Source: a virus
UHGV virus genome: UHGV-0222911
Length of the DNA stretch: 64,000 nucleotides
Reading direction: 5' to 3' (one strand)
The notes beneath the pieces were generated by a model. The model was not told the DNA's origin. It searched no databases and was given only the letters and a program-made list of their open reading frames with translations. The translations under genes and the position numbers were made by a program. Below, piece after piece: positions 6,833-53,597 of the stretch (positions are counted from its first letter, which is position 1; every line of letters begins with the position of its first letter).

Positions 6833-7873
6833 ATGGAGAAGTACACGCTAACAAAACTTCCCGATTCAGTTACACATGTCTTTATTGACTCTGATAGTAT
6901 TGCCTATAAAGGTGCTTGTGTAGTTGAGAAAGCAAAATATAAGTATGTCAATAAACTCACAGCAGAAGAATCTGAACCATTTGATAATGCAAAAGATGCG
7001 GCAAGATGGTTAGCAGACCAGAGAATCCTTGTGGAAGAACTTGGCCTGACATTTGATGAAGATGAATGGGAAAGACAGACTTGGAAAGAAGCTAAGAGTG
7101 AAAAAGAAGCTATCATGGCTACTCAGCAGGTTCTTCAGGAATGGCTTAAGGTTGTTGGTAAAGAAAGAACTTGGGTAGGTTACTTAACAGAGAAGGGTGT
7201 ACATAAACATAAAGACATTAAAGGTCTTGAGCACCAATATCAAGGTAACCGTAAAGAGGCTGTCACACCAACACACTTAGTTGCTTGTCGCGAATATCTT
7301 CTGTCAAGACCAGAGTTTAAACTCTTAAAGGGTGGCTTCGAAGCCGATTCCATCGTAATTGCTAAAGCTGAAAAGATGGGTAAGAAGGCTGCTCTTATGA
7401 GTATTGACAAAGACCTTCGACAAGCTGAAGGTACTTATTGTATTGATATGACTTATGAAAAGTCACCACTAATTTTTATTGCTGACAATAATGTTGGTGA
7501 TATCTGGGATTGTCCTATCAAATCAAAACCAAAAGCTGCAAAAACAGTTGGTGTAGGTTTTAAATTTTTGTGTTATCAGGCTGTTGCTGGAGATAATGCA
7601 GACAACTACTTCGGCCTTAAAGGTGCTGGAAAAGTAGCTGTGATGAATGCTTTAGAGGGTAAAGAGACCTATAAAGAGTGTCTTGATGCTATCTATGAAC
7701 TCTATGCTAAAAAAGAGTCTTACACCTATGTGTCATGGGATGGACAGACTGTTACCAAAACACCATTAGAGTTAATGGAACAACATTTCTGGATAGCATA
7801 TCAAGAGAGAAATCCAAAAGATAATTTCTCTTTTAAGAAATATAATTGGGAGCCGTGTATGAATGAAGATTAA
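6833..7873 (+). CDS. 5'-3' exonuclease (T7 gp6-like / FEN-like)
   Basis: 346 aa; N-terminal VFIDSDSIAYKGA and central SIDKDLRQ...DNADNYFGLKGAGKV resemble gp6 exonuclease motifs (recalled); terminator-like hairpin precedes gene. Confidence 0.55.
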   Translation: MEKYTLTKLPDSVTHVFIDSDSIAYKGACVVEKAKYKYVNKLTAEESEPFDNAKDAARWLADQRILVEELGLTFDEDEWERQTWKEAKSEKEAIMATQQVLQEWLKVVGKERTWVGYLTEKGVHKHKDIKGLEHQYQGNRKEAVTPTHLVACREYLLSRPEFKLLKGGFEADSIVIAKAEKMGKKAALMSIDKDLRQAEGTYCIDMTYEKSPLIFIADNNVGDIWDCPIKSKPKAAKTVGVGFKFLCYQAVAGDNADNYFGLKGAGKVAVMNALEGKETYKECLDAIYELYAKKESYTYVSWDGQTVTKTPLELMEQHFWIAYQERNPKDNFSFKKYNWEPCMNED

Positions 7874-22994: not shown

Positions 22995-25361
22995 ATGCGC
23001 ATGGTAAATGACCACGCAGAAGTGATTAAGAGTTCAACTTCTTTAGAGACGTCTCAAGCACAGATTACAATGACACCTGAGATGTTCAGCCTTTTGAGTT
23101 CTGGTGTATATACCTTTAAAGAAAGGGCAGTGATTCGTGAACTGTCATGTAATGCAGTAGATGCTCAGAAAGAAGCTGGAAAAGAAAACATCCCGTTCCA
23201 TGTGCATTTACCTACTCGATTTGAGCCTTACTTTGAAGTCCGTGACTTTGGAACTGGTTTAACCCATGACAAAGTAATGAGTTTGTATCTGAACTACGGT
23301 GCTTCTACGAAGAATGACTCTAATGACTACATTGGTGCAATGGGTATCGGCTCAAAGTCACCGTTTGCAATTGCTCAGTCATTCACAGTATCTAGCTATG
23401 TTGATGGTGTTGTTAATAAGTACTCTGTTTACCTTGAGAATGGTATCCCTCAAGTAACTAAGCTTACTACTAACCAAACAAATGAACCTAATGGTTTAGC
23501 GGTACGTGTGGCAGTTGCTGACCACCGTATCTCAAAGTTCTTTGAAGAAGCTGGGAATGTGTACTCATACTTCACTGTAAAACCAGAAAGTAATATTGAG
23601 TACGACGATGTATTAGCAGATATGAACGTCATTGCCCGTGAAGAAGGTGTTTATGATGCCATGATTCATAAGCAAAGCTGGCGTTCTAGTGGTAACAGGA
23701 CAGAGTTTAATGTGGTGATGGGTAATATTGCCTATCCAGTGAACATGGAAGCATTACTTGGTGATGATTTCTTCAAAGTCTTGCCAGAGTTTTTCCGTAG
23801 GAGCGTAGACCTTGTAAACATCTACATGCCTATTGGTTCAGTTGCTATAGCAGCTTCTCGTGAAGCATTGCAGATGAATGACACGACAAAAAATGTTATC
23901 ATTGAGGCTACTAAAAAGATAACTGAAGCCATTACAAAGGATGTTATCAAGAAAGTTAATAGCCAACCTACACTCATGGATGCTGCACAGGCTTATGCAG
24001 AGTTACGTTTGAACTCACGAGAGATGTTTAATGCTGTGTGTCCAAAGCTAGAGTGGGGAGGCGTTAAGCTTGATTCTCTGGAAGAAGAATTGTTAAACAT
24101 TCGTCGTGGAATTATCTACGCAGAAGACGGCTCAGTCATTTATGAACGTGACGGTAAAGGCAATATTAAGGTTGATAGGAACGGGAACAATATCCCTAAA
24201 GTAGATTATCTTTATGACCCAGTTGCTTATGTCAAGTTCAACTCTTTAGAGAGTAAGATTCGTGCAACAGCACTTTCCTACACTCAAGAGGCAAGCATGT
24301 TCAATATCTTTGGTGCAATGCGTAAAAGCCAAATTGAACAGTTTTTGTTCGTGATTAATGACCGTCGCAATAAAAACGGTACTGAGAAGACTGTAGGACG
24401 CAATCAAATTTTGCGTGGTGCATGTCGAGACTACGCCAGTGAGTCAAATCTGTTTCACAGATACAATGGTATTGTCTTTGTATTCTCTACAGAGAAAGAG
24501 CTAGATGACTTAATCAATCTGCACAAACTTGATAAAAGCTTGTTAAAGATTGTGAAGATGTCTGATAAGGAACATCACTATCAGCGTAAAGAAGCTGTAA
24601 GAGGTGTTGTAAAACTCTGGAAAGCTGTTCCAGCAGAAGGTGTAGCTTCCTATAAAGAGGTTTCAGAGGACTTTGATACAATTGAAGAACCTCAGCTTTA
24701 CATTAAGGCAGTTGGTGACACAGTTGACGGTGAATGTTTTTGCTCATCTCCAGAAGATGTAGCCAAGTCAGTTGCTAATGTTATAGGGAAGACAGTCTAT
24801 GTTTTCCGAAAAGCAAATTGGAAAAAGATACCAGAAGACTGGATTGAAGTAGACGAGAAACTCTTGAACGACAGCTTAACTGACGTTCACTGGATTAACC
24901 ATAACAGATATATGACACGTATCTATATGAATGGTGTCCTCGACCTTACAAGCAGTTGGATTATTGCCAGAAACTTTACGTTCAATAACAGGAAGATTTC
25001 TCGTGGCTATTGCTATTCACGAGACACAAACAAAACTATCTTCTTAGAAGGCAATGAAGATGCTGTTGAGGCAATGTTTGGTAAAATCCAATACGTTGCT
25101 GCACCGTTTGCATACACTTACACTATTAGTAGATTGCAAACTTTGAAAGAATGCCTTGACAATGATACAAAACTGTACAAGAAAATTAAGAAAGCTGGTG
25201 ACCGCATGGTCATTAAGGTGACAAACTACCTTTCAAAAAGAAAACAAGAAAACTTCTTGCTTTCACACTTAGATTGGAATAAAGTGTCACCCATCGAAGT
25301 GAGTAAGTTCTTAGGCTTTGATGTGAAGTGTGTTCCAGAAGGGACTACAATTTACGATTAA
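22995..25361 (+). CDS. rIIA: rIIA-like protein with GHKL (histidine-kinase-like) ATPase domain
   Basis: 788 aa; N-box IRELSCNAVDA, G1 box VRDFGTGL, G2 box GAMGIGSKSPF; followed by rIIB-like gene. Confidence 0.6.
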   Translation: MRMVNDHAEVIKSSTSLETSQAQITMTPEMFSLLSSGVYTFKERAVIRELSCNAVDAQKEAGKENIPFHVHLPTRFEPYFEVRDFGTGLTHDKVMSLYLNYGASTKNDSNDYIGAMGIGSKSPFAIAQSFTVSSYVDGVVNKYSVYLENGIPQVTKLTTNQTNEPNGLAVRVAVADHRISKFFEEAGNVYSYFTVKPESNIEYDDVLADMNVIAREEGVYDAMIHKQSWRSSGNRTEFNVVMGNIAYPVNMEALLGDDFFKVLPEFFRRSVDLVNIYMPIGSVAIAASREALQMNDTTKNVIIEATKKITEAITKDVIKKVNSQPTLMDAAQAYAELRLNSREMFNAVCPKLEWGGVKLDSLEEELLNIRRGIIYAEDGSVIYERDGKGNIKVDRNGNNIPKVDYLYDPVAYVKFNSLESKIRATALSYTQEASMFNIFGAMRKSQIEQFLFVINDRRNKNGTEKTVGRNQILRGACRDYASESNLFHRYNGIVFVFSTEKELDDLINLHKLDKSLLKIVKMSDKEHHYQRKEAVRGVVKLWKAVPAEGVASYKEVSEDFDTIEEPQLYIKAVGDTVDGECFCSSPEDVAKSVANVIGKTVYVFRKANWKKIPEDWIEVDEKLLNDSLTDVHWINHNRYMTRIYMNGVLDLTSSWIIARNFTFNNRKISRGYCYSRDTNKTIFLEGNEDAVEAMFGKIQYVAAPFAYTYTISRLQTLKECLDNDTKLYKKIKKAGDRMVIKVTNYLSKRKQENFLLSHLDWNKVSPIEVSKFLGFDVKCVPEGTTIYD

Positions 25362-25440
25362 AGTGTTTGACAAGGGGCTTCAAAGCCCCTTAGAATAGCC
25401 TTACAAAATGATTTATTAACTAACAAGAGAGAGTAATAAG

Positions 25441-26346
25441 ATGACTACTAAAACTAAAGCACAGATTGACGCAGAAATTTACGAACTGGTTAAAGAAGGT
25501 AAGCTGACTAAAACAGCTATTGCACAGAAGTTCAATACTTCAACCCGTTCAGTTGGTCGTGCTGTAGAGCGTCATGAAGCAACCTTAAAAGGTAAGAAGA
25601 AGGCGACTTCTACACCAGCTAAGAAGACCCTAAAACAAGTTGCTAAGTCAGTTAAAAAGAAAGCTGACAAACCAGTTGAAAAGGCCGTTAAAGACGCTGT
25701 ACAGAAAGCTCCAGTAAATAAACTGCATGAAGCTATGCAGAAAGATGACAAGATTGAGTACATGATTACTGGTGACTCTGTAATTATGACTTACGGTTCA
25801 GAATCTGAAATTGTTGAGTCTACTCATCCGAACTATCAAGAGATTGTAGTTCATGTTGTGAAAGGTGAGTTCAAGAAAGCATTTGAACTGATGAACATTC
25901 GTAAGTCTATCGAAAACTTCACTCAGGGTGCTATCACAATCAAAGGTGACAAGCTCTTCTACGGTGCTGTTGAGATGCGTTCTACTCTGGTTGACCGTAT
26001 TCTTCACATGATGAAAACTGGTGATAAAGGTTTTGAACGACTTGTAATGTTCTTCGAAAAACTGATGGAAAACCCATCTAAAGATTCTGTAGAACAACTT
26101 TGGGGATTTGTATCTCACCTTGATGTTGAAATTGATGAAGAAGGTTACATCATTGGTTGGAAGAAAGTCTCTACTCGTGAAGGCAAGCTGGTTGACTCTC
26201 ACACCTACAAAGTGCCTAATGATTTGGGTAACATTGTAGAGATGCCACGTTGGATGGTTGATAACAACCGTAACGTAACTTGCTCTCAAGGTCTTCATGT
26301 TGGCGCTTGGATTATGTTCGTTGCTTCTCAGGTGATACCATCCTGA
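25441..26346 (+). CDS. rIIB: rIIB-like protein, 5' portion (reading frame interrupted near 26302-26310)
   Basis: 301 aa ORF downstream of rIIA-like gene; C-terminal TCSQGLHV then frame is lost; continuation is in overlapping frame. Confidence 0.5.
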   Translation: MTTKTKAQIDAEIYELVKEGKLTKTAIAQKFNTSTRSVGRAVERHEATLKGKKKATSTPAKKTLKQVAKSVKKKADKPVEKAVKDAVQKAPVNKLHEAMQKDDKIEYMITGDSVIMTYGSESEIVESTHPNYQEIVVHVVKGEFKKAFELMNIRKSIENFTQGAITIKGDKLFYGAVEMRSTLVDRILHMMKTGDKGFERLVMFFEKLMENPSKDSVEQLWGFVSHLDVEIDEEGYIIGWKKVSTREGKLVDSHTYKVPNDLGNIVEMPRWMVDNNRNVTCSQGLHVGAWIMFVASQVIPS

Positions 26347-26549
26347 AGGTTCGTGTCCATCCACGAGATGTTGTATCCGTACCAACTGATTACAACGATA
26401 TGAAGATGCGTTCCTCTCGTTATGAAGTTGCAGCAATCGTTGATAATCAACGTAAAGTGCTGAAAGCATGGGATGGTAAGACTGAAGCTTTGCATGTCAT
26501 CGTTGGCACTGCTGGTGAACTTATCTCTCAACGTAAACGTGAAATCTAA
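26310..26549 (+). CDS. rIIB: rIIB-like protein, 3' portion in shifted frame
   Basis: Frame-0 translation DYVRCFSGDTILKVRVHPRDVVSVPTDYNDMKMR... continues the rIIB-like sequence; no ATG at its 5' end. Confidence 0.4.
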   Translation, partial: DYVRCFSGDTILKVRVHPRDVVSVPTDYNDMKMRSSRYEVAAIVDNQRKVLKAWDGKTEALHVIVGTAGELISQRKREI

Positions 26550-26564
26550 TAAGTAATTTCTTAA

Positions 26565-26590
26565 AAGGCTGCTTCGGCGGCCTTTTTTAT
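26565..26590 (+). terminator. rho-independent terminator-like hairpin
   Basis: AAGGCTGC-TTCG-GCGGCC followed by TTTTTTATTT. Confidence 0.45.
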
Positions 26591-26649
26591 TTGTATTTTG
26601 TGCAGAGTGCTGTATAATTGTTGTCACGATAAACTAAACAGGAGAACCA

Positions 26650-27198
26650 ATGAAGAAATTGATTCTAGGCTTGTGCTTAATGTTTACAGCACACTTATCT
26701 TATGCAGTTGACTGCCCAGAGCTATCAATTAGCCAAAAAGTTAACATGTTAAAAGCTTACCAGTATGGTGAGAATAATATGGGGAAAGGCTGGGGTATTA
26801 CTCTAGCAGCTATAGCCTTACAAGAGTCAGAGTTAGGTCTGAAGGTAGAGAATAAAAAGACCCACGACTATGGTATTTTCCAGAATCACTTGAAGACTGT
26901 TGTAAAGCGTAACAAAATTAGTCCTAATGTGGCTAAAAAGAAACTCTTAAAAGATTTTGACTATGCAGCAAAAGAGACACATAAAGAGCTTGAGTTTTGG
27001 ACTAAGGTACATGGTCACCCGAAGTCAAAGAAGACTTTACAAAAAGTTTTAGCATCATATAATGCTGGGTATTCGTACAAAATCCCTAAAGCTAAGAAAT
27101 ACTCTCAAGATGTCTATAACAATATGAAAGTTATCGCTCAATGTGAATTTGCAACAAACATTTCTAAGGTAAATCATGAAAAAATTAAGAAAGTCTGA
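26650..27198 (+). CDS. secreted lytic transglycosylase-like (SLT-domain) protein
   Basis: N-terminal signal peptide MKKLILGLCLMFTAHLSYA; SLT-like AIALQESELG ... DYGIFQN. Confidence 0.4.
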   Translation: MKKLILGLCLMFTAHLSYAVDCPELSISQKVNMLKAYQYGENNMGKGWGITLAAIALQESELGLKVENKKTHDYGIFQNHLKTVVKRNKISPNVAKKKLLKDFDYAAKETHKELEFWTKVHGHPKSKKTLQKVLASYNAGYSYKIPKAKKYSQDVYNNMKVIAQCEFATNISKVNHEKIKKV

Positions 27199-47138: not shown

Positions 47139-48554
47139 ATGAGCGAATTATTTAAACATGCGCACCTTCATGCAGGTCGAACTGAAAATGGTGCTGTAAA
47201 CCATACTTCATCAATGTCTGCTCTTGTAGACTTTTACAAAGCTGCTGGTTCTAGCCGTAGCAATGTAGAAATCTTACCAGACCTGTTCTACAAAGCTTTG
47301 CGTGAGGATGTTGATGTTGCAGTTCGTATTTTACTGCATATGCGAGATGTACGAGAAGGTATGGGTGAGCGTAAAGCTTTCCGAACTGTTTTAATTCAAG
47401 CAGTTGAAGATAAAGTTTTAGAACCTACACAGGTTCTTCGCATTATGGATAAGATTGCAGAGCTTGGTCGCTTTGATGACTTCAAAATCTTTGTAGGTAC
47501 TCGTTTCGAGACAGATGCCTTCAAACACTTAGAAGCAGCATTACTAGACCCTGCAACAGCAGGTTTGGCGGCTAAGTGGTTACCACGAGTCAAACCACGT
47601 CATAAGCAGTTTGTAAAACGTTTCTGCAAGTTTGCCAACTTGAGCGAGAAAGAGTACCGCACACTGTTGTCTGCACTATCTGATACAGTTGAGCAAAAAA
47701 TCTCTGCTAATGAGTTTGGTAAGATTGACTACAGTAAGATTCCTTCACTTGCTGCTGCACGCTACCAAAAACTGTTTAACCGTAAAGATGGAGAGCGATA
47801 CAAAGCTTACATCGAGTCCTTATCAAAGGGTGAGGCTAAGATTAATGCTGGTGCTGTTTACCCATACGATGTGATTAAATCTGTCAAGCATGGTAATGCA
47901 GATGTTGCTAATGAGCAGTGGAAAGCACTACCAAACTGGATGGCAGAAGGTGAAAACATCTTATGTATGTCTGATGTATCAAGTTCAATGTCTTGGGTGA
48001 ATTTTGGCTCCATTACTGCTCTGGATATTGGTGTATCACTTGCCTTGTATGTAGCAGAACGCAATACAGGCTGCTTTAAGAATGAGTTGATGGTTTATTC
48101 AACAAACCCTCACTTCATCGAACTGAGTGGTGATTTACGAAACCGTCATCGTCAGGTGATGCGACACGTTGAATATGGCTCAACTAACTTACAAGCAGCT
48201 TTTGACCGTATTCTTGAGGTAGGTAAGAGAAACAACTTGACTCAGAAAGATATGCCAAGTAAGCTTATCATCTTCTCTGATATGGAGTTCAATCAGGTTG
48301 ATGGTGCAAATGGTCGTACAAACTTTGAAGTAATTCGTAGTAAGTACAAAAAAGCTGGATACGAAATGCCACAACTAGTATTCTGGTACTTAGCAAACCG
48401 TAATGGTACTTGCGAAGTGTCTGTTAAGGATAACGGTGTAGCAATGGTATCAGGGTTCTCTCCAGCCACTTTAAAAGCTCTGCTCGGTGGTGAGAATTTT
48501 GACCCAATCAGCGTAATGCTCAAAGCAGTAATGATTGACCGTTACATCTGGTAA
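47139..48554 (+). CDS. vWA-domain protein with helical N-terminal domain (possible Ro60/TROVE-like architecture)
   Basis: 471 aa; MIDAS-type DVSSSM (DxSxS) with downstream GSTN and FSDMEF elements in the C-terminal half; N-terminal about 280 aa helical. Confidence 0.45.
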   Translation: MSELFKHAHLHAGRTENGAVNHTSSMSALVDFYKAAGSSRSNVEILPDLFYKALREDVDVAVRILLHMRDVREGMGERKAFRTVLIQAVEDKVLEPTQVLRIMDKIAELGRFDDFKIFVGTRFETDAFKHLEAALLDPATAGLAAKWLPRVKPRHKQFVKRFCKFANLSEKEYRTLLSALSDTVEQKISANEFGKIDYSKIPSLAAARYQKLFNRKDGERYKAYIESLSKGEAKINAGAVYPYDVIKSVKHGNADVANEQWKALPNWMAEGENILCMSDVSSSMSWVNFGSITALDIGVSLALYVAERNTGCFKNELMVYSTNPHFIELSGDLRNRHRQVMRHVEYGSTNLQAAFDRILEVGKRNNLTQKDMPSKLIIFSDMEFNQVDGANGRTNFEVIRSKYKKAGYEMPQLVFWYLANRNGTCEVSVKDNGVAMVSGFSPATLKALLGGENFDPISVMLKAVMIDRYIW

Positions 48555-48572: not shown

Positions 48573-48602
48573 TTGACAATGTGTTTAATACCCTTTAATA
48601 TG
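48573..48602 (+). promoter_or_regulatory. sigma70-like promoter upstream of tRNA cluster
   Basis: TTGACA-17-TTTAAT; second TTGACA at 48664. Confidence 0.35.
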
Positions 48603-48719
48603 TTCTACATAGAAACGAAATGAGAGCTTTTCTAAGATACTGAAAAATATTTTAAAAAAGTTCTTGACAACCACTAAAAAATAATGTTAAAGTGGTTACA
48701 TAGAGTTTGAAAAGTTTAT

Positions 48720-48887: not shown

Positions 48888-48962
48888 ACAGAAGACCAAT
48901 TACAGCAAACTTAATCTTATTCATCTGAAGGTAAATCGGACAAAGAAGAGATTTGGTCTGGT
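48888..48962 (+). ncRNA. structured element family A, copy a (conserved stem ACAGAAGACCAAT...ATTTGGTCTGG)
   Basis: 5' ACAGAAGACCNNTTACAGCAA and 3' GGTCTGG conserved in 4 copies; ends are reverse-complementary. Confidence 0.4.
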
Positions 48963-49056: not shown

Positions 49057-49120
49057 AGAAGACCGTTTACAGCAATATTTATTAAATTTTTAGCGGAAAA
49101 ATTGAAAGATACGGTCTGGT
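49057..49120 (+). ncRNA. structured element family A, copy b
   Basis: ACAGAAGACCGTTTACAGCAA ... ATACGGTCTGG with internal hairpin AATTTTT-AGCGG-AAAAATT. Confidence 0.4.
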
Positions 49121-49450: not shown

Positions 49451-49529
49451 AATTATAATAAGTATTTCAAAATGATGTTTTGAGAGGGCTATTTAGCCCC
49501 TCCCTTAAAGAGTTCTTACGAGTATTCTT

Positions 49530-49612
49530 TAAAGGAGCAGAAGACCAAATTCAGCAAGTTACTTAAAATTTCAAGCCAATTTAATTTTGAAAAATTTAAA
49601 ACTTGGTCTGGC
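49530..49612 (+). ncRNA. structured element family A, copy c
   Basis: GCAGAAGACCAAATTCAGCAA ... AACTTGGTCTGG. Confidence 0.4.
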
Positions 49613-49623
49613 TCAACAAATTT

Positions 49624-49756
49624 ACAGAAGACCGTTTACAGCAAACTTTAAACAATCTATTTCTCCGGTAAAGAAAAGGCGAAGGTTCGATTCCTTCACT
49701 CGGCAGATGTCGAGTTGGTGTAATGGTAGCACTTAAGATGATAAACAACGGTCTGG
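49624..49756 (+). ncRNA. structured element family A, copy d, enclosing a tRNA-like module (T arm then acceptor/D-arm-like segment)
   Basis: Outer stem CAGAAGACCGTT/AACGGTCTGG; inside GAAGG-TTCGATT-CCTTC + ACTCGGC followed by GTCGAGT-TG-GTGTAATGGTAGCAC (acceptor strands complementary but in 3'-then-5' order). Confidence 0.4.
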
Positions 49757-49900
49757 TAATTATCTTTGCAGATAAGTTATTAAGCTTACCTGTGAGTATG
49801 CGACCACAAAGGGTGAAAGGGTAAATTCTAGATTTAAACCCAACAAGGCACATCGCTACAGACCTTAAGCAAGTCTGGGTAGCTTATCTACAAAGATAAT
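49757..49900 (+). ncRNA. candidate structured RNA bounded by inverted repeats TATCTTTGCAGATAAG / CTTATCTACAAAGATA
   Basis: Terminal 16-nt arms reverse-complementary (1 mismatch); internal hairpins CAGACC-TTAAGCAA-GTCTG and palindrome TAAATTCTAGATTTA. Confidence 0.3.
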
Positions 49901-49905
49901 TTAAT

Positions 49906-50137: not shown

Positions 50138-50213
50138 GCTGGTATAGTTAAGAAGGTTATAACACTCCCCTGATAAGGGAACATCGGTGGTTCGATTCCA
50201 CCTACCAGTACCA
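50138..50213 (+). tRNA. tRNA-Ile (anticodon GAU)
   Basis: Acceptor GCTGGTA/TACCAGT, D arm GTTA/TAAC, anticodon loop CTGATAA, T arm GGTGG-TTCGATT-CCACC, CCA. Confidence 0.65.
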
Positions 50214-50228
50214 ATTTCAATAAAGTTG

Positions 50229-50258
50229 TTGACATTGAGATGTGACCACTTTATAGTA
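50229..50258 (+). promoter_or_regulatory. sigma70-like promoter inside tRNA cluster
   Basis: TTGACA-17-TATAGT. Confidence 0.4.
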
Positions 50259-50461
50259 ACCTTAGTTTTCGTTGCGTAGCGTCTATTTTGCAAATTTAAA
50301 ATAAATGCAAACGACAATGTTTTTCTGGCAGTAGCTTGATAGGCTAAACACCAGTGAGGTCTTCCAATCCCTCATCAAAGAATTTGGCGTACTCGCCCAC
50401 GGTATGATTAATAAGGTGGGCATCTTTAAGGGCTTTCTAAGAGAGTCTTTAAAGATAATTA

Positions 50462-50543
50462 CGGGGCGTATCTCAGCGGTCTTCTAAACCGCCGTTAACC
50501 GAGTAAGTGGAGTATGCGGGTTCGAGTCCTGCCGCCTCGACCA
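50462..50543 (+). tRNA. atypical tRNA-like gene (anticodon-like loop CTTCTAA = UCU, Arg?) immediately upstream of HNH gene
   Basis: Perfect 7-bp acceptor CGGGGCG/CGCCTCG, T arm GCGGG-TTCGAGT-CCTGC, CCA, hairpin GCGGT-CTTCTAA-ACCGC; no canonical D arm found by eye, 23-nt extra region. Confidence 0.35.
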
Positions 50544-50557
50544 ATTTTGGAGAAATC

Positions 50558-50905
50558 ATGAAAACTTGTATTAGGTGCAAACTTAGCAAGGATGAAAATG
50601 ATTTCTACATGAAAGATGGTAGGAGAACTCATTCATACTGTAAAAAGTGTGTTAATGAGCAAACCATAGAAAGACAAAGAGCACTTAAACTCTTAGCTAT
50701 TGAGTACAAAGGTGGGGTTTGTCATGATTGTGGTAAGAAGTATCATCCAGCAGTGTATGACTTCCATCATTTGAATCCTTCAGATAAAGATTTTAACATT
50801 GGTCATAGGAAAAGCCTTAAGTTCTCTCAAGAACTAAAAGATGAACTTGACAAATGTGTTTTGCTATGTTCAAATTGCCATAGGGTAAGACATGCAAAAT
50901 ATTAG
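50558..50905 (+). CDS. HNH endonuclease with N-terminal zinc-finger (inserted in tRNA cluster)
   Basis: Track ORF 50507.. overlaps tRNA; trimmed to MKTCIRCKL; HHLNPSDKDF...CVLLCSNCHRVRH HNH/Zn motif; paralog of 51134..51538. Confidence 0.55.
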   Translation: MKTCIRCKLSKDENDFYMKDGRRTHSYCKKCVNEQTIERQRALKLLAIEYKGGVCHDCGKKYHPAVYDFHHLNPSDKDFNIGHRKSLKFSQELKDELDKCVLLCSNCHRVRHAKY

Positions 50906-51133: not shown

Positions 51134-51538
51134 ATGAAACTTTGTAGAAAATGTTCTCAAGAAAAGCCTTTAAGCTGCTTTCATAAAAGAGGTAATGGCT
51201 ATCAGTCTGCTTGCAAAGATTGTAAAGCTAAGTACTCAGCAAAGAGATACAAAGAAGACCCTACTTATAAAGCAAAAAGAAAAGTTAGGGCAAAATATGA
51301 CAAAAAGAGGAACAGAGAGTTCCTTAGTAGATATAAGAAGTTTTGCAAATGCAGAATATGTGGCGAATCTGAGCCAGTAGCTTTGGATTTTCATCACTTA
51401 GACCCTAAAGAGAAAGATTTTGCTCCAAGCAATCTTAAAACTTACTCTAGGGGCACTATTAAGCGTGAAGTCCGTAAGTGTGTTGTGCTTTGTTCAAACT
51501 GTCATAGGAAAGTTCATGCAGGACTGTTAAGTATTTAA
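51134..51538 (+). CDS. HNH endonuclease with N-terminal zinc-finger (inserted in tRNA cluster)
   Basis: 134 aa; CRKCSQEK...CKDCKAK and HHLDPKEKDF...CVVLCSNCHRKVH. Confidence 0.55.
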   Translation: MKLCRKCSQEKPLSCFHKRGNGYQSACKDCKAKYSAKRYKEDPTYKAKRKVRAKYDKKRNREFLSRYKKFCKCRICGESEPVALDFHHLDPKEKDFAPSNLKTYSRGTIKREVRKCVVLCSNCHRKVHAGLLSI

Positions 51539-51796: not shown

Positions 51797-51822
51797 AAGA
51801 CCTTTTTAGGTCTTTTTAGAGG
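51797..51822 (+). terminator. hairpin with T-runs inside tRNA cluster
   Basis: AGACC-TTTTTA-GGTCT followed by TTTTAG. Confidence 0.3.
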
Positions 51823-51896
51823 GCTTCTAAGGTTATTACAGCTTGTTGTGGAACCTTGTTGCTTAGGTTCTTAGAAGTTCTCTAAAAAGATTTAAT

Positions 51897-53566: not shown

Positions 53567-53597
53567 CTTCTAAGGGTTCTTACGAGAGTCCTTAAAT

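What the first reader, a model, noticed from the sequence alone, without database searches (positions are those of the whole stretch)
49624..49756. Structured element containing tRNA halves in permuted order (T arm and 3' acceptor strand precede the 5' acceptor strand and D arm)
Within element copy d, the sequence GAAGGTTCGATTCCTTC-ACTCGGC (canonical T arm plus a 7-nt 3' acceptor strand) is followed 3 nt later by GTCGAGT-TG-GTGTAATGGTAGCAC, whose first 7 nt are complementary (with one G-U) to ACTCGGC and which continues into a D-arm-like hairpin. The whole unit is clamped by the long-range stem CAGAAGACCGTT / AACGGTCTGG. This is either a circularly permuted or split tRNA-like gene, a Y-RNA-type tRNA mimic, or a recombination scar between tRNAs. 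None of these is a routine annotation.
Basis: seen in the sequence. Interest (0 to 1): 0.7.

Follow-up and report, generated by a model that had tools for sequence, protein, structure and literature searches.

The report
Phage Y RNA mimicking a tRNA
The odd "tRNA halves in the wrong order" are real: they form a tRNA-shaped small RNA that probably partners a Ro60-like protein encoded next door, and the same unannotated RNA-protein pair sits beside tRNA genes in phages of many bacterial groups.

Summary
Window 49629-49754 (+) folds as an 8-bp terminal helix enclosing a tRNA body in permuted order: anticodon-arm-like hairpin, T arm, 7-bp acceptor stem closed by a 4-nt loop, then D arm. Distant phages keep all four helices with compensatory changes (94% of cells paired vs 64% shuffled; 21 of 24 pairs change on both sides).

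Elements a-d share one module: a 7-bp terminal stem starting exactly 10 nt before an invariant CAGCAA, usually followed by a 3' G. This module clusters on the gene strand beside DUF2828 genes:
- 41 vs 1 hits in 13 curated sources (the window plus 12 phage loci).
- 62 vs 8 hits in 65 independent metagenomic loci.

Rfam YrlA does not detect element d, the YrlA GNCGAA motif is absent, and the protein is not TROVE by sequence. I call it a new variant of a known kind. RNA-protein binding, processing and function are inferred, not shown. A resemblance to Dictyostelium Class I RNAs remains untested.

The parts
47139..48554 (+). Gene for a 471-aa Ro60-fold protein (HEAT-repeat ring plus vWA/MIDAS domain); the proposed protein partner of RNAs a-d
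48573..48693 (+). Two sigma-70-like promoters (48573-48601 and 48664-48693) ahead of the tRNA/Y-RNA array
   Evidence: Each matches 10 of 12 consensus positions, with TTGACA as the -35 hexamer. The scan reports no terminator-like site on the + strand between 48596 and 53829, so none lies between these promoters and element d. These are consensus matches only.
48893..48960 (+). Element a: short Y-like RNA (7-bp terminal stem AGACCAA/TTGGTCT, TTACAGCAA, 3' G)
   Evidence: R1 hit of 29.4 bits. It lies between tRNA-Glu and tRNA-Met.
49060..49118 (+). Element b: short Y-like RNA (AGACCGT/ACGGTCT, TTACAGCAA, 3' G)
   Evidence: R1 hit of 36.7 bits. It lies between tRNA-Met and tRNA-Asn.
49542..49610 (+). 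Element c: short Y-like RNA (AGACCAA/TTGGTCT, ATTCAGCAA, 3' G)
49629..49755 (+). Element d: long Y-like RNA with a permuted tRNA-like body (the finding itself)
49629..49644 (+). 5' strand of the terminal helix (AGACCGTT, 49629-49636) plus the invariant motif TACAGCAA (49637-49644); proposed protein-binding module together with 49747-49755
   Evidence: In 39 elements from 12 phage lineages the stem starts exactly 10 nt before CAGCAA. CAGCAA is invariant by construction, because the elements were found by searching for it. Pairs 1-7 are 99% paired, against 59% in shuffles.
49660..49676 (+). V / anticodon-arm-like hairpin TTTCT-CCGGTAA-AGAAA
   Evidence: Sf13 and SUSP2 have the loop CTGGTAA. The hairpin differs in Moogle and HP1.
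49681..49697 (+). T arm GAAGG-TTCGATT-CCTTC
   Evidence: Helix 2: 98.7% of cells paired, and 4 of 5 pairs change on both sides.
49698..49715 (+). Acceptor stem closed by a loop: ACTCGGC - AGAT - GTCGAGT
   Evidence: Helix 3: all 7 pairs change on both sides, and 95.9% of cells are paired.
49716..49732 (+). TG (the tRNA positions 8-9) plus the D arm GTGT-AATGGTA-GCAC with G18 G19
   Evidence: Helix 4: 98.2% of cells paired, and 2 of 4 pairs change on both sides.
49747..49755 (+). 3' strand of the terminal helix (AACGGTCT) plus the conserved unpaired G
   Evidence: Helix 1: all 8 pairs change on both sides. The 3' G is present in 36 of 39 elements.

Best explanation
Element d is a phage-encoded Y-type noncoding RNA of the YrlA kind.

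Proposed mechanism:
- It is transcribed on the + strand together with the tRNA array.
- Its ends pair in a 7-8-bp helix that is followed directly by (U)ACAGCAA.
- Its interior folds into a tRNA-like L-shape whose acceptor end is closed by a loop. In the linear sequence the T arm and 3' acceptor strand therefore come before the 5' acceptor strand and D arm.
- Elements a, b and c are short paralogues that carry only the terminal helix and motif.
- This helix-plus-motif module is the docking site for the Ro60-fold protein encoded 1 kb upstream (47139-48554).
- As in known Ro60/Rsr-Y RNA particles, the RNA would gate or tether the protein ring. The tRNA-like body would recruit tRNA-recognising factors (processing or modification enzymes, an exoribonuclease such as PNPase, or a tRNA-directed host defence).
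- The particle would therefore act on tRNA or structured RNA during infection.

What is shown: the sequence features, the covarying structure, the Ro60 fold, and the genomic co-occurrence on the same strand.

What is inferred: transcription and processing, protein-RNA binding, and the downstream function.
For: - Structure: the MFE fold gives the permuted cloverleaf. A covariance model built from five Ounavirinae copies finds full-length copies in phages of Enterococcus (64.9 bits), Bacillus (58) and Mycobacterium (50.1), and weaker ones in Sinorhizobium, Campylobacter and Yersinia phages. All lie on the gene strand.
- Covariation: 94.0% of cells are paired against 63.9% in shuffles and 33-45% when the partner is slid. 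21 of 24 pairs change on both sides.
- YrlA architecture: the paper's description and the Rfam consensus alignment show the same T, AS, D order. Rfam YrlA gives significant sub-threshold hits on relatives: 44.9, 36.4 and 34 bits.
- Protein: Ro60 fold, with an invariant MIDAS motif.
- Co-occurrence: the strict module (7-bp stem starting 10 nt before CAGCAA) gives 41 gene-strand hits against 1 on the other strand in 200.8 kb (the window plus 12 curated loci), with a shuffle mean of 1.4. In 65 independent IMG/VR loci it gives 62 against 8, is present in 41 of 65 loci, and shuffles give 3-12.
- G-U pairs fit the + strand only (Moogle GACTGT/ACGGTC and GGCCAA/TTGGTC).
- Same modules in the other permutation: tRNA-shaped RNAs with an open acceptor stem and NCCA carry the helix-plus-motif in place of the anticodon loop.
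- Literature: in the Felixounavirus Bas63, gp130 is described as Ro60-like, upstream of the tRNAs, and needed against the Ppl defence. By that description it appears to be the counterpart of the window's ORF, which I did not check. Its authors only guessed that some tRNA genes might be Y RNAs (PMC11482910). A Listeria phage homologue is Rsr-like by HHpred, and Y RNAs were suspected nearby (PMC12282133). Thermus phage Ro60 binds phage Y-like RNAs and host PNPase (PMC12135203).
Against: - Rfam YrlA (RF02553) gives no hit on element d even at E <= 10.
- The YrlA/Y RNA motif GNCGAAN0-1G is absent and is replaced by UACAGCAA.
- The protein has no TROVE Pfam hit. It has no HMM similarity to solved Ro60 proteins. 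The relationship rests on a predicted fold.
- The folding energy of d alone is not unusual (z = -1.16).
- There are no expression or binding data for this phage. The Listeria phage's top-expressed 490-nt region turned out to be a ROOL-like RNA, not the module cluster.
- The alignment used for pair counts was fitted to the model. The 39-element set was picked with a stem criterion, so its 99% pairing is partly circular.
Confidence: 0.75

Rival explanations
1. A genuine permuted or split tRNA gene. RNase P would cut at 49708/49709, and the 3' end would be trimmed and given CCA. The resulting two-piece molecule, held together by the acceptor and terminal helices, would work in translation, for example as a tRNA-Thr(GGU).
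For: - The 49660-49676 hairpin sits exactly where an anticodon arm would, with a 4-nt variable region, and the tRNA model scores 24.7 bits.
- Sf13 and SUSP2 have a canonical loop, C-U-GGU-A-A.
- Moogle and HP1 encode GCCA, and phiM7 and Cronobacter S13 encode ACCA, directly after the 3' acceptor strand.
- M. smegmatis YrlA is cut by RNase P and receives CCA in vivo.
Against: - The hairpin is not conserved as an anticodon arm. It has C33 in the window and G33 with no variable region in Moogle and HP1. It is unrecognisable in the Mycobacterium and Bacillus phage copies.
- ARAGORN does not call it.
- A helix inserted at position 26/27 has no precedent in a decoding tRNA.
- The short paralogues a-c carry the same helix and motif without any tRNA body, so the conserved unit is the module and not a tRNA.
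Confidence: 0.05
2. A recombination scar or pseudogene: the 3' part of one decayed tRNA followed by the 5' part of the next, with no function.
For: - It lies in a dense tRNA array that also contains homing-endonuclease-like ORFs.
- Adjacent tRNAs can mimic the T arm, spacer, D arm order. Chen et al. warn that dimeric tRNAs could score. One R1 hit in Cronobacter S13 (6946-7066) does span two neighbouring tRNA-shaped genes.
Against: - The two acceptor strands pair with each other, and all 7 pairs show compensatory changes.
- The element is kept at 95-99% identity in about 200 Felixounavirus records. It is recognisable in Mooglevirus and Suspvirus and in phages of Gram-positive hosts and mycobacteria.
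- The invariant motif and the fixed 10-nt spacing are shared with non-tRNA paralogues.
Confidence: 0.02
3. Cis-acting processing or insulator structures of the polycistronic tRNA precursor (guides for RNase E, III or P), with no trans-acting RNP.
For: a and b sit exactly between tRNAs. Each element follows a tRNA 3' end plus AAATTT-ACAG-like leader. Other conserved hairpins occur in the array.
Against: - In many phages the elements are not between tRNAs. They lie directly up- or downstream of the DUF2828 gene: Mycobacterium, Staphylococcus, Campylobacter and Listeria phages and most metagenomic loci.
- The association follows the protein gene, not the tRNAs.
- A sequence-invariant single-stranded CAGCAA next to a covarying helix looks like a protein-binding site.
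Confidence: 0.08
4. A tRNA decoy that acts without the Ro-like protein, soaking up a tRNA-directed host nuclease, toxin or modification enzyme.
For: The elbow-forming nucleotides of the tRNA are intact (U8, A14, G18 G19, U54 U55 C56, A58). Phage tRNA arrays are thought to counter tRNA-cleaving defences (my own knowledge). The Bas63 protein counters a defence system.
Against: It does not explain the short forms, the invariant CAGCAA module, or the strict linkage to the protein gene. It is compatible with the main explanation rather than a true alternative.
Confidence: 0.08

Closest known systems
YrlA-type bacterial Y RNAs (Rfam RF02553; Salmonella, Mycobacterium smegmatis, mycobacteriophages; Chen et al. 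2014, PMC4201824)
   Same: - A terminal helix enclosing a tRNA-like domain in the order V, T arm, closed acceptor stem, D arm.
- Conserved T-loop and D-loop nucleotides.
- Encoded within a few kb of, and on the same strand as, a Ro60-type protein gene.
- Accompanied by shorter Y RNAs that lack the tRNA body (like YrlB).
- Relatives of d score 34-45 bits with the YrlA model.
   Different: - Element d is not detected by RF02553 at all.
- The proposed protein-binding motif is (U)ACAGCAA at a fixed 10-nt register rather than GNCGAAN0-1G.
- The partner protein is DUF2828/DUF7788 and is not TROVE by sequence.
- The RNAs are embedded in a phage tRNA array, with up to 8 copies per locus.
- Some phages carry the alternative, open-acceptor permutation.
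Thermus phage phiLo Ro60 with Yrl1/Yrl2 (PDB 9KOP, 9L5Y; PMC12135203)
   Different: The phiLo RNAs carry the canonical CGAA motif in a bulge. No tRNA-like body was noted in the passages I read. The phiLo protein is a recognisable TROVE protein.
Dictyostelium Class I RNAs (Rfam RF01414; PMC7919456)
   Same: - A short terminal stem closed by a G-C pair.
- (C)CUUACAGCAA directly after the 5' strand.
- An A+U-rich variable middle.
- A 3' strand followed by UG.
- The positions nearly invariant in Dictyostelia (C6, C9, A10, A11 of the motif) all fall inside the phage-invariant CAGCAA.
- RF01414 was the only non-tRNA family to hit the short elements repeatedly: 19.7-20.1 bits in the window and 28-29.8 bits in Aeromonas phage 4_4572.
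   Different: - All hits are below the gathering score of 41.5.
- There are no hits on the copies in phages of Gram-positive hosts, Campylobacter or mycobacteria.
- Class I RNAs are eukaryotic, have their own DUSE promoter, and are reported to be unique to Dictyostelia.
- Their only verified direct binder is an RRM protein.
- I could not test whether Dictyostelia encode a DUF2828 protein.
Circularly permuted tRNA-type genes elsewhere: permuted tRNA genes of Cyanidioschyzon merolae and two-piece (permuted) tmRNA genes (from my own knowledge)
   Same: The 3' acceptor/T-arm half is encoded upstream of the 5' acceptor/D-arm half.
   Different: Those genes yield a functional tRNA or tmRNA after processing. 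Here there is no conserved anticodon arm, no tag reading frame and no G3:U70. The conserved extra module is a protein-binding helix. The weak Rfam tmRNA and permuted-tmRNA hits in the array lie elsewhere (50155-50460).

Membership tests
YrlA-type Y RNA (RF02553) | tRNA-like domain in the order V, T arm, closed acceptor stem (AS), D arm inside a terminal helix | tested here: met
   MFE fold; covariation in all four helices; same order as in the Rfam consensus and in the paper's description.
YrlA-type Y RNA (RF02553) | Conserved tRNA elbow nucleotides (T loop UUCRAnn; D loop with GG; U8/A14) | tested here: met
   TTCGATT, AATGGTA and the TG at positions 8-9. The T-loop core (GTTCGA, then T and C) and the D-loop GG are invariant across 10 distant copies. 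The Levitt pair would be A15:C48, which is not canonical.
YrlA-type Y RNA (RF02553) | Encoded within about 4 kb of, and on the same strand as, a Ro60 orthologue | tested here: met
YrlA-type Y RNA (RF02553) | 5' motif GNCGAAN0-1G (proposed Rsr contact) | tested here: not met
   The 5' region reads AGACCGTT-TACAGCAA. CAGCAA is present in all 39 collected elements, which were found by searching for it.
YrlA-type Y RNA (RF02553) | Reaches the Rfam gathering score (69 bits) | tested here: not met
   No hit on d at E <= 10. Relatives score 25.6-44.9 bits.
YrlA-type Y RNA (RF02553) | RNA is expressed, bound by the Ro protein, and carries tRNA modifications | not testable with these tools
   Needs RNA sequencing, immunoprecipitation and modification mapping.
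Ro60 / TROVE protein family (for ORF 47139-48554) | HEAT-repeat ring plus C-terminal vWA domain with a MIDAS motif | tested here: met
Ro60 / TROVE protein family (for ORF 47139-48554) | Sequence membership (Pfam TROVE PF05731) | tested here: not met
   Only DUF2828 and DUF7788 at E <= 1. Neither the single sequence nor the profile matches solved Ro60 sequences.
Canonical or permuted tRNA gene | A complete cloverleaf with a conserved anticodon arm (U33, purine 37), recognised by tRNA finders | tested here: not met
   ARAGORN makes no call. The Rfam tRNA model scores 24.7 bits, below 29. The hairpin loop is CCGGTAA (C33) and is not conserved in Moogle, HP1 or distant copies.
Dictyostelium Class I RNA (RF01414) | Short terminal stem plus the 11-nt motif CCUUACAGCAA next to the 5' strand, and a 3' CUGU | tested here: inconclusive
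   The phage elements have UUACAGCAA in the same place and a 3' ...CU-G. Stem length and spacing differ by one position.
Dictyostelium Class I RNA (RF01414) | Reaches the Rfam gathering score (41.5 bits) | tested here: not met
   14.7-20.1 bits in the window; at most 29.8 bits in Aeromonas phage 4_4572.

The most novel reading that the evidence does not exclude
The helix-plus-(U)UACAGCAA RNAs may be the general RNA partners of DUF2828 Ro-like proteins wherever that protein family occurs. Pfam, as I recall it, describes the family as found in eukaryotes and viruses.

On this reading the Dictyostelium Class I RNAs are the eukaryotic members of the same RNA family. Those RNAs are abundant, were discovered about 20 years ago, have no known mechanism, and are reported to be unique to Dictyostelia. 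They would then be Y-type RNAs of a second, unrecognised branch of Ro ribonucleoproteins that is shared by phages and eukaryotes.
Probability: 0.2. Interest if true: 0.9.

Novelty: new variant of a known kind. Interest (0 to 1): 0.72.

Why it matters
- Scale. Ro60-Y RNA particles are known from animals, some bacteria and a few phages. This work points to a second, much larger phage branch: tblastn finds the protein in 710 of 50,697 phage records, and it has 2,839 homologues among the 8,000 candidates scored in the large protein set. None of its RNAs is annotated or covered by Rfam.

- Candidate RNAs for two published guesses. Two recent papers suspected Y RNAs next to this protein but did not locate them (PMC11482910, PMC12282133). 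The coordinates and the sequence/structure signature given here supply concrete candidates.

- A route to function. In Bas63 the protein is required against the Ppl defence system. The RNAs are therefore direct candidates for an RNA-based counter-defence or tRNA-care mechanism that can be tested genetically.

- Annotation. The overlong 'tRNA-Ser' and 'tRNA-OTHER' calls in some phage genomes are explained as the alternative permutation of the same RNA.

- Dictyostelium. If the Class I resemblance is real, a long-standing orphan RNA class would gain a testable partner.

Tried and rejected
- Rfam at gathering and permissive thresholds on the window and on 15 loci. No curated family covers a-d. 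YrlA hits only some relatives, below threshold.
- ARAGORN does not call d.
- Thermodynamic significance of d alone is weak.
- Sequence and profile searches of the protein against PDB sequences found nothing. Only the fold comparison worked.
- MAFFT alignments of distant long copies (A2, A3) and of short copies (A7) mis-register the 3' stem strands. I therefore used a model-based alignment (A6) and coordinate-based counts in Python.
- I expected the Listeria phage CKA15 'most transcribed region' (26,236-26,727) to be the module cluster. It is not. The cluster is at 25,274-25,575, and in the related phage LP-064 the region at the corresponding position is a ROOL-like RNA.
- The afdb50 fold library was unavailable. 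With no named eukaryotic hits, I could not check whether Dictyostelium has a DUF2828 protein. Literature searches on DUF2828 identifiers gave only plant and unrelated papers.
- Avesson et al. 2011 and two Wolin-lab reviews are not held.
- Literal motif strings occur in no held paper.
- The Vibrio ValKK3 and KVP40-like loci gave only an ambiguous module overlapping the gene start.

Full report
**Context.** The window is a Felix O1-like phage (Felixounavirus, Ounavirinae). The region 48700-50300 matches 306 phage records, most at 90-99% identity. ARAGORN finds 26 tRNA genes between 48720 and 54680, all on the + strand, and none at the finding.

**The observation.**
- Element d runs from 49629 to 49754.
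- The terminal helix is AGACCGTT (49629-49636) with AACGGTCT (49747-49754).
- TACAGCAA (49637-49644) follows the 5' strand directly.
- A 5-bp, 7-nt-loop hairpin occupies 49660-49676, followed by AGGC.
- The T arm is 49681-49697 and the 3' acceptor strand is 49698-49704.
- The loop AGAT is 4 nt, not 3.
- The 5' acceptor strand is 49709-49715, followed by TG and the D arm at 49718-49732.

The MFE fold gives exactly this permuted cloverleaf, but its energy is not exceptional (z = -1.16). The Rfam tRNA model scores 24.7 bits on 49641-49705, below its threshold of 29. It reads the hairpin as an anticodon arm.

**Comparative test.** Element d is conserved in 253 phage records and is recognisable in Mooglevirus and Suspvirus at 75-88% identity.
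- The acceptor stem changes by compensation. It is ACTCGGC/GTCGAGT here, ACACG/CGTGT in Sf13 and SUSP2, and ACCCTTC/GAAGGGT in Moogle and HP1.
- Moogle also has G-U pairs in the terminal helices that fit only a + strand RNA.
- A covariance model (R1) built from these five copies finds full-length copies on the gene strand in phages of Enterococcus (64.9 bits), Bacillus (58.0) and Mycobacterium (50.1 and 32.7).
- Weaker full-length copies appear in Sinorhizobium, Campylobacter and Yersinia phages.
- Independent single-sequence folds of these copies give the same T arm, closed acceptor stem and D arm.
- On the model-based alignment, 94.0% of cells pair, against 63.9% in shuffles and 33-45% with slid partners.
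- 21 of 24 pairs change on both sides, including all 7 acceptor pairs and all 8 terminal pairs. The alignment is fitted to the model, which favours the structure, but the margin is large.

This excludes a scar of two unrelated tRNAs.

**What it is.** The order V hairpin, T arm, closed acceptor stem, D arm inside a terminal helix is the defining layout of YrlA-type bacterial Y RNAs (Chen et al. 2014). It is also the layout of the Rfam YrlA consensus.

The ORF 47139-48554 ends 1.07 kb upstream of d on the same strand.
- It is Pfam DUF2828 + DUF7788 and PHROG 850 'RNA-binding protein'.
- It has no sequence-level match to TROVE or to solved Ro60 proteins.
- Its AlphaFold model (pLDDT 89.2) is a full-length Ro60 fold.
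- The 12 best Foldseek PDB hits are all Ro60/TROVE.
- A MIDAS DxSxS motif is invariant.

**A wider RNA family.** Elements a (48893-48960), b (49060-49118), c (49542-49610) and d share one module. It is a 7-bp terminal stem that starts exactly 10 nt before an invariant CAGCAA, usually within (U)UACAGCAA, and is followed by an unpaired G. The stems covary between paralogues (GACCAA/TTGGTC against GACCGT/ACGGTC).

The same module lies next to DUF2828 genes, on the gene strand, in phages of Aeromonas (8 or more copies), Yersinia, Cronobacter, Campylobacter, Sinorhizobium, Mycobacterium, Bacillus, Enterococcus, Staphylococcus and Listeria. A typical locus has two or three short copies and one long, tRNA-like copy.

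In 39 collected elements the first seven pairs are 99% paired, against 59% in shuffles, with 3-5 pair types per position. The 3' G is present in 36 of 39. This set was chosen with a stem criterion, so I also ran tests that do not depend on that choice:
- The strict pattern gives 41 hits on the gene strand against 1 on the other strand in 200.8 kb, with a shuffle mean of 1.4.
- In 65 independent IMG/VR loci whose protein is at most 46% identical, it gives 62 against 8. It is present in 41 of 65 loci, mostly within a few hundred bases of the gene, and shuffles give 3-12.
- R1 finds 12 more hits in eight of those loci, at least eight of them full-length tRNA-like copies, all on the gene strand.

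**Two permutations.** Aeromonas phage 4_4572 (L007 2493-2613) and Cronobacter phage S13 (L009 6895-7019 and 7025-7141) carry tRNA-shaped RNAs with an open acceptor stem and an encoded NCCA. The S13 pair is annotated as a 121-nt 'tRNA-Ser' and a 'tRNA-OTHER'.

In these RNAs the anticodon arm is replaced by the same helix, now closed by a short loop, followed by AUUCAGCA/UUACAGCAA and a V hairpin. S13 also has a copy with the topology of d (7154-7288).

The two functional units, protein-type module and tRNA body, are therefore kept while the chain termini move. Several d-type copies encode N-CCA right after the 3' acceptor strand: Moogle and HP1 have GCCA, and phiM7 and S13 have ACCA. This suggests cleavage in the acceptor loop, as reported for M. 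smegmatis YrlA. The window's loop, AGAT, has no CCA.

**Relation to known families.**
- Rfam YrlA does not hit d even at E <= 10.
- It does give significant sub-threshold hits on the Enterococcus and Mycobacterium phage copies: 44.9, 36.4 and 34 bits, against a gathering score of 69.
- The YrlA motif GNCGAAN0-1G is replaced by UACAGCAA.
- I therefore do not file d as a member of RF02553. It works like a YrlA and belongs to a distinct family associated with DUF2828.

**Literature.**
- The PhageMaP preprint noted that Bas63 gp130 resembles Ro60, lies upstream of the tRNAs and counters the Ppl defence. It only guessed that some tRNA genes might be Y RNAs.
- A Listeria phage study made a similar guess.
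- Thermus phage Ro60 binds canonical CGAA-type Y-like RNAs and host PNPase.
- I found no description of the RNAs reported here.

**Mechanism.**
- Shown: the covarying structure, the strand, the linkage to a Ro60-fold gene, and strong sigma-70-like promoters at 48573-48601 and 48664-48693 with no terminator-like site reported on the + strand between them and element d.
- Inferred: a-d are co-transcribed with the tRNAs and released by tRNA-end processing.
- Inferred: the helix-plus-CAGCAA module binds the Ro-like ring.
- Inferred: the tRNA-like body recruits tRNA-recognising factors. The particle would then act in tRNA or structured-RNA surveillance, repair or counter-defence.
- Neighbouring RtcB, RNA ligase and CCA-adding enzyme genes in other phages fit an RNA-repair setting.

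**Side observation.** The only non-tRNA Rfam family that repeatedly touches the short elements is the Dictyostelium Class I RNA family. It scores 19.7-20.1 bits in the window and 28-29.8 bits in the Aeromonas phage, against a gathering score of 41.5.

The shared layout is striking: a G-C-closed short stem, then (C)UUACAGCAA, an A+U-rich middle, and the 3' strand followed by UG. However, copies in phages of Gram-positive hosts, Campylobacter and mycobacteria are not hit. I could not test whether Dictyostelia have a DUF2828 protein.

**Verdict.** The 'Y-RNA-type tRNA mimic' reading is supported. It is a new variant of a known kind, with a broad and previously unannotated distribution.

Noticed in passing
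window 49757-49905: Directly after d lies a structured element of about 145 nt, with a terminal helix of about 23 bp (MFE -43.6 kcal/mol). It is conserved in Mooglevirus and Suspvirus with 10 compensatory pairs among five sequences. No Rfam family matches it.
   Followed up: partly
window 48894-48960, 49061-49118, 49630-49755; L007 525-577, 4140-4193, 4598-4660: Sub-threshold hits of the Dictyostelium Class I RNA model (RF01414) fall on the short elements. The shared layout is a terminal stem, then (C)UUACAGCAA, then the 3' strand followed by UG. Whether this reflects a real relationship is untested.
   Followed up: partly
L009 6895-7019 and 7025-7141 (Cronobacter phage S13); L007 2493-2613 (Aeromonas phage 4_4572): Overlong 'tRNA' genes: the S13 pair is annotated as tRNA-Ser (121 nt) and tRNA-OTHER, and the unannotated Aeromonas copy is a 117-nt Rfam tRNA hit. 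They are tRNA-shaped RNAs whose anticodon arm is replaced by the helix-plus-CAGCA(A) module. This is the other circular permutation of element d.
   Followed up: yes
L001 about 1595-1615; L004 about 2065-2085; L011 2338-2362; L009 about 7220-7245: In Moogle and HP1 (GCCA) and in phiM7 and S13 (ACCA), the acceptor 'loop' begins with a discriminator base plus CCA. This hints at cleavage in the loop and a free CCA end. The window's copy has AGAT instead.
   Followed up: partly
L015 3429-3980 (Listeria phage LP-064); L018 about 1049-1540 (phage CKA15, record 26,236-26,727): A ROOL-like RNA (RF03087, 87.4 bits, gathering score 99.1, E 4e-16) lies between the tRNAs and the Ro-like gene of LP-064. 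By position it corresponds to the most highly transcribed, unexplained region reported for phage CKA15; the CKA15 copy itself did not reach the gathering score.
   Followed up: partly
L006 4964-5010 (Vibrio phage ValKK3); L011 4896-4930; L007 4908-4958; L010 4896-4973: In several phages a module copy sits in the 5' untranslated region of the DUF2828 gene, or overlaps its start. This could allow the protein to regulate its own mRNA.
   Followed up: no
window 50558-50905 and 51134-51538: Two small ORFs inside the tRNA array have Cys-pair and His-rich motifs that look like HNH homing endonucleases by eye. I did not test them with a profile search.
   Followed up: no
window 50462-50540: The Rfam tRNA model hits here (31.7 bits, just above threshold), but ARAGORN does not call it. 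In Moogle and Sf13 a tRNA-Arg is annotated at roughly the same distance past tRNA-Ile (correspondence judged by position only). It may be a degenerate or unusual tRNA.
   Followed up: no
window 49508-49540, 50427-50456, 51808-51880, 53572-53597: Related imperfect hairpins (CTTTAAAGAGTTCTTACGAGTATTCTTTAAAGG and variants) recur between tRNAs. Similar ones occur in Moogle and in Yersinia phage P778. Their role is unknown; they may be processing sites.
   Followed up: no
L013 877-1227 (Enterococcus phage phiSHEF13): A full tmRNA gene (RF00023, 145.5 bits) lies in the phage tRNA region, upstream of the Ro-like gene.
   Followed up: no
short elements in L002 800-862, L003 825-883, L004 1351-1412, L005 7788-7878, L007 3990-4043: Many copies carry a central U-rich hairpin with a 7-nt loop of the type YGCAUAG or CUGCAUA. 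It resembles an anticodon loop and may be a second recognition element.
   Followed up: no
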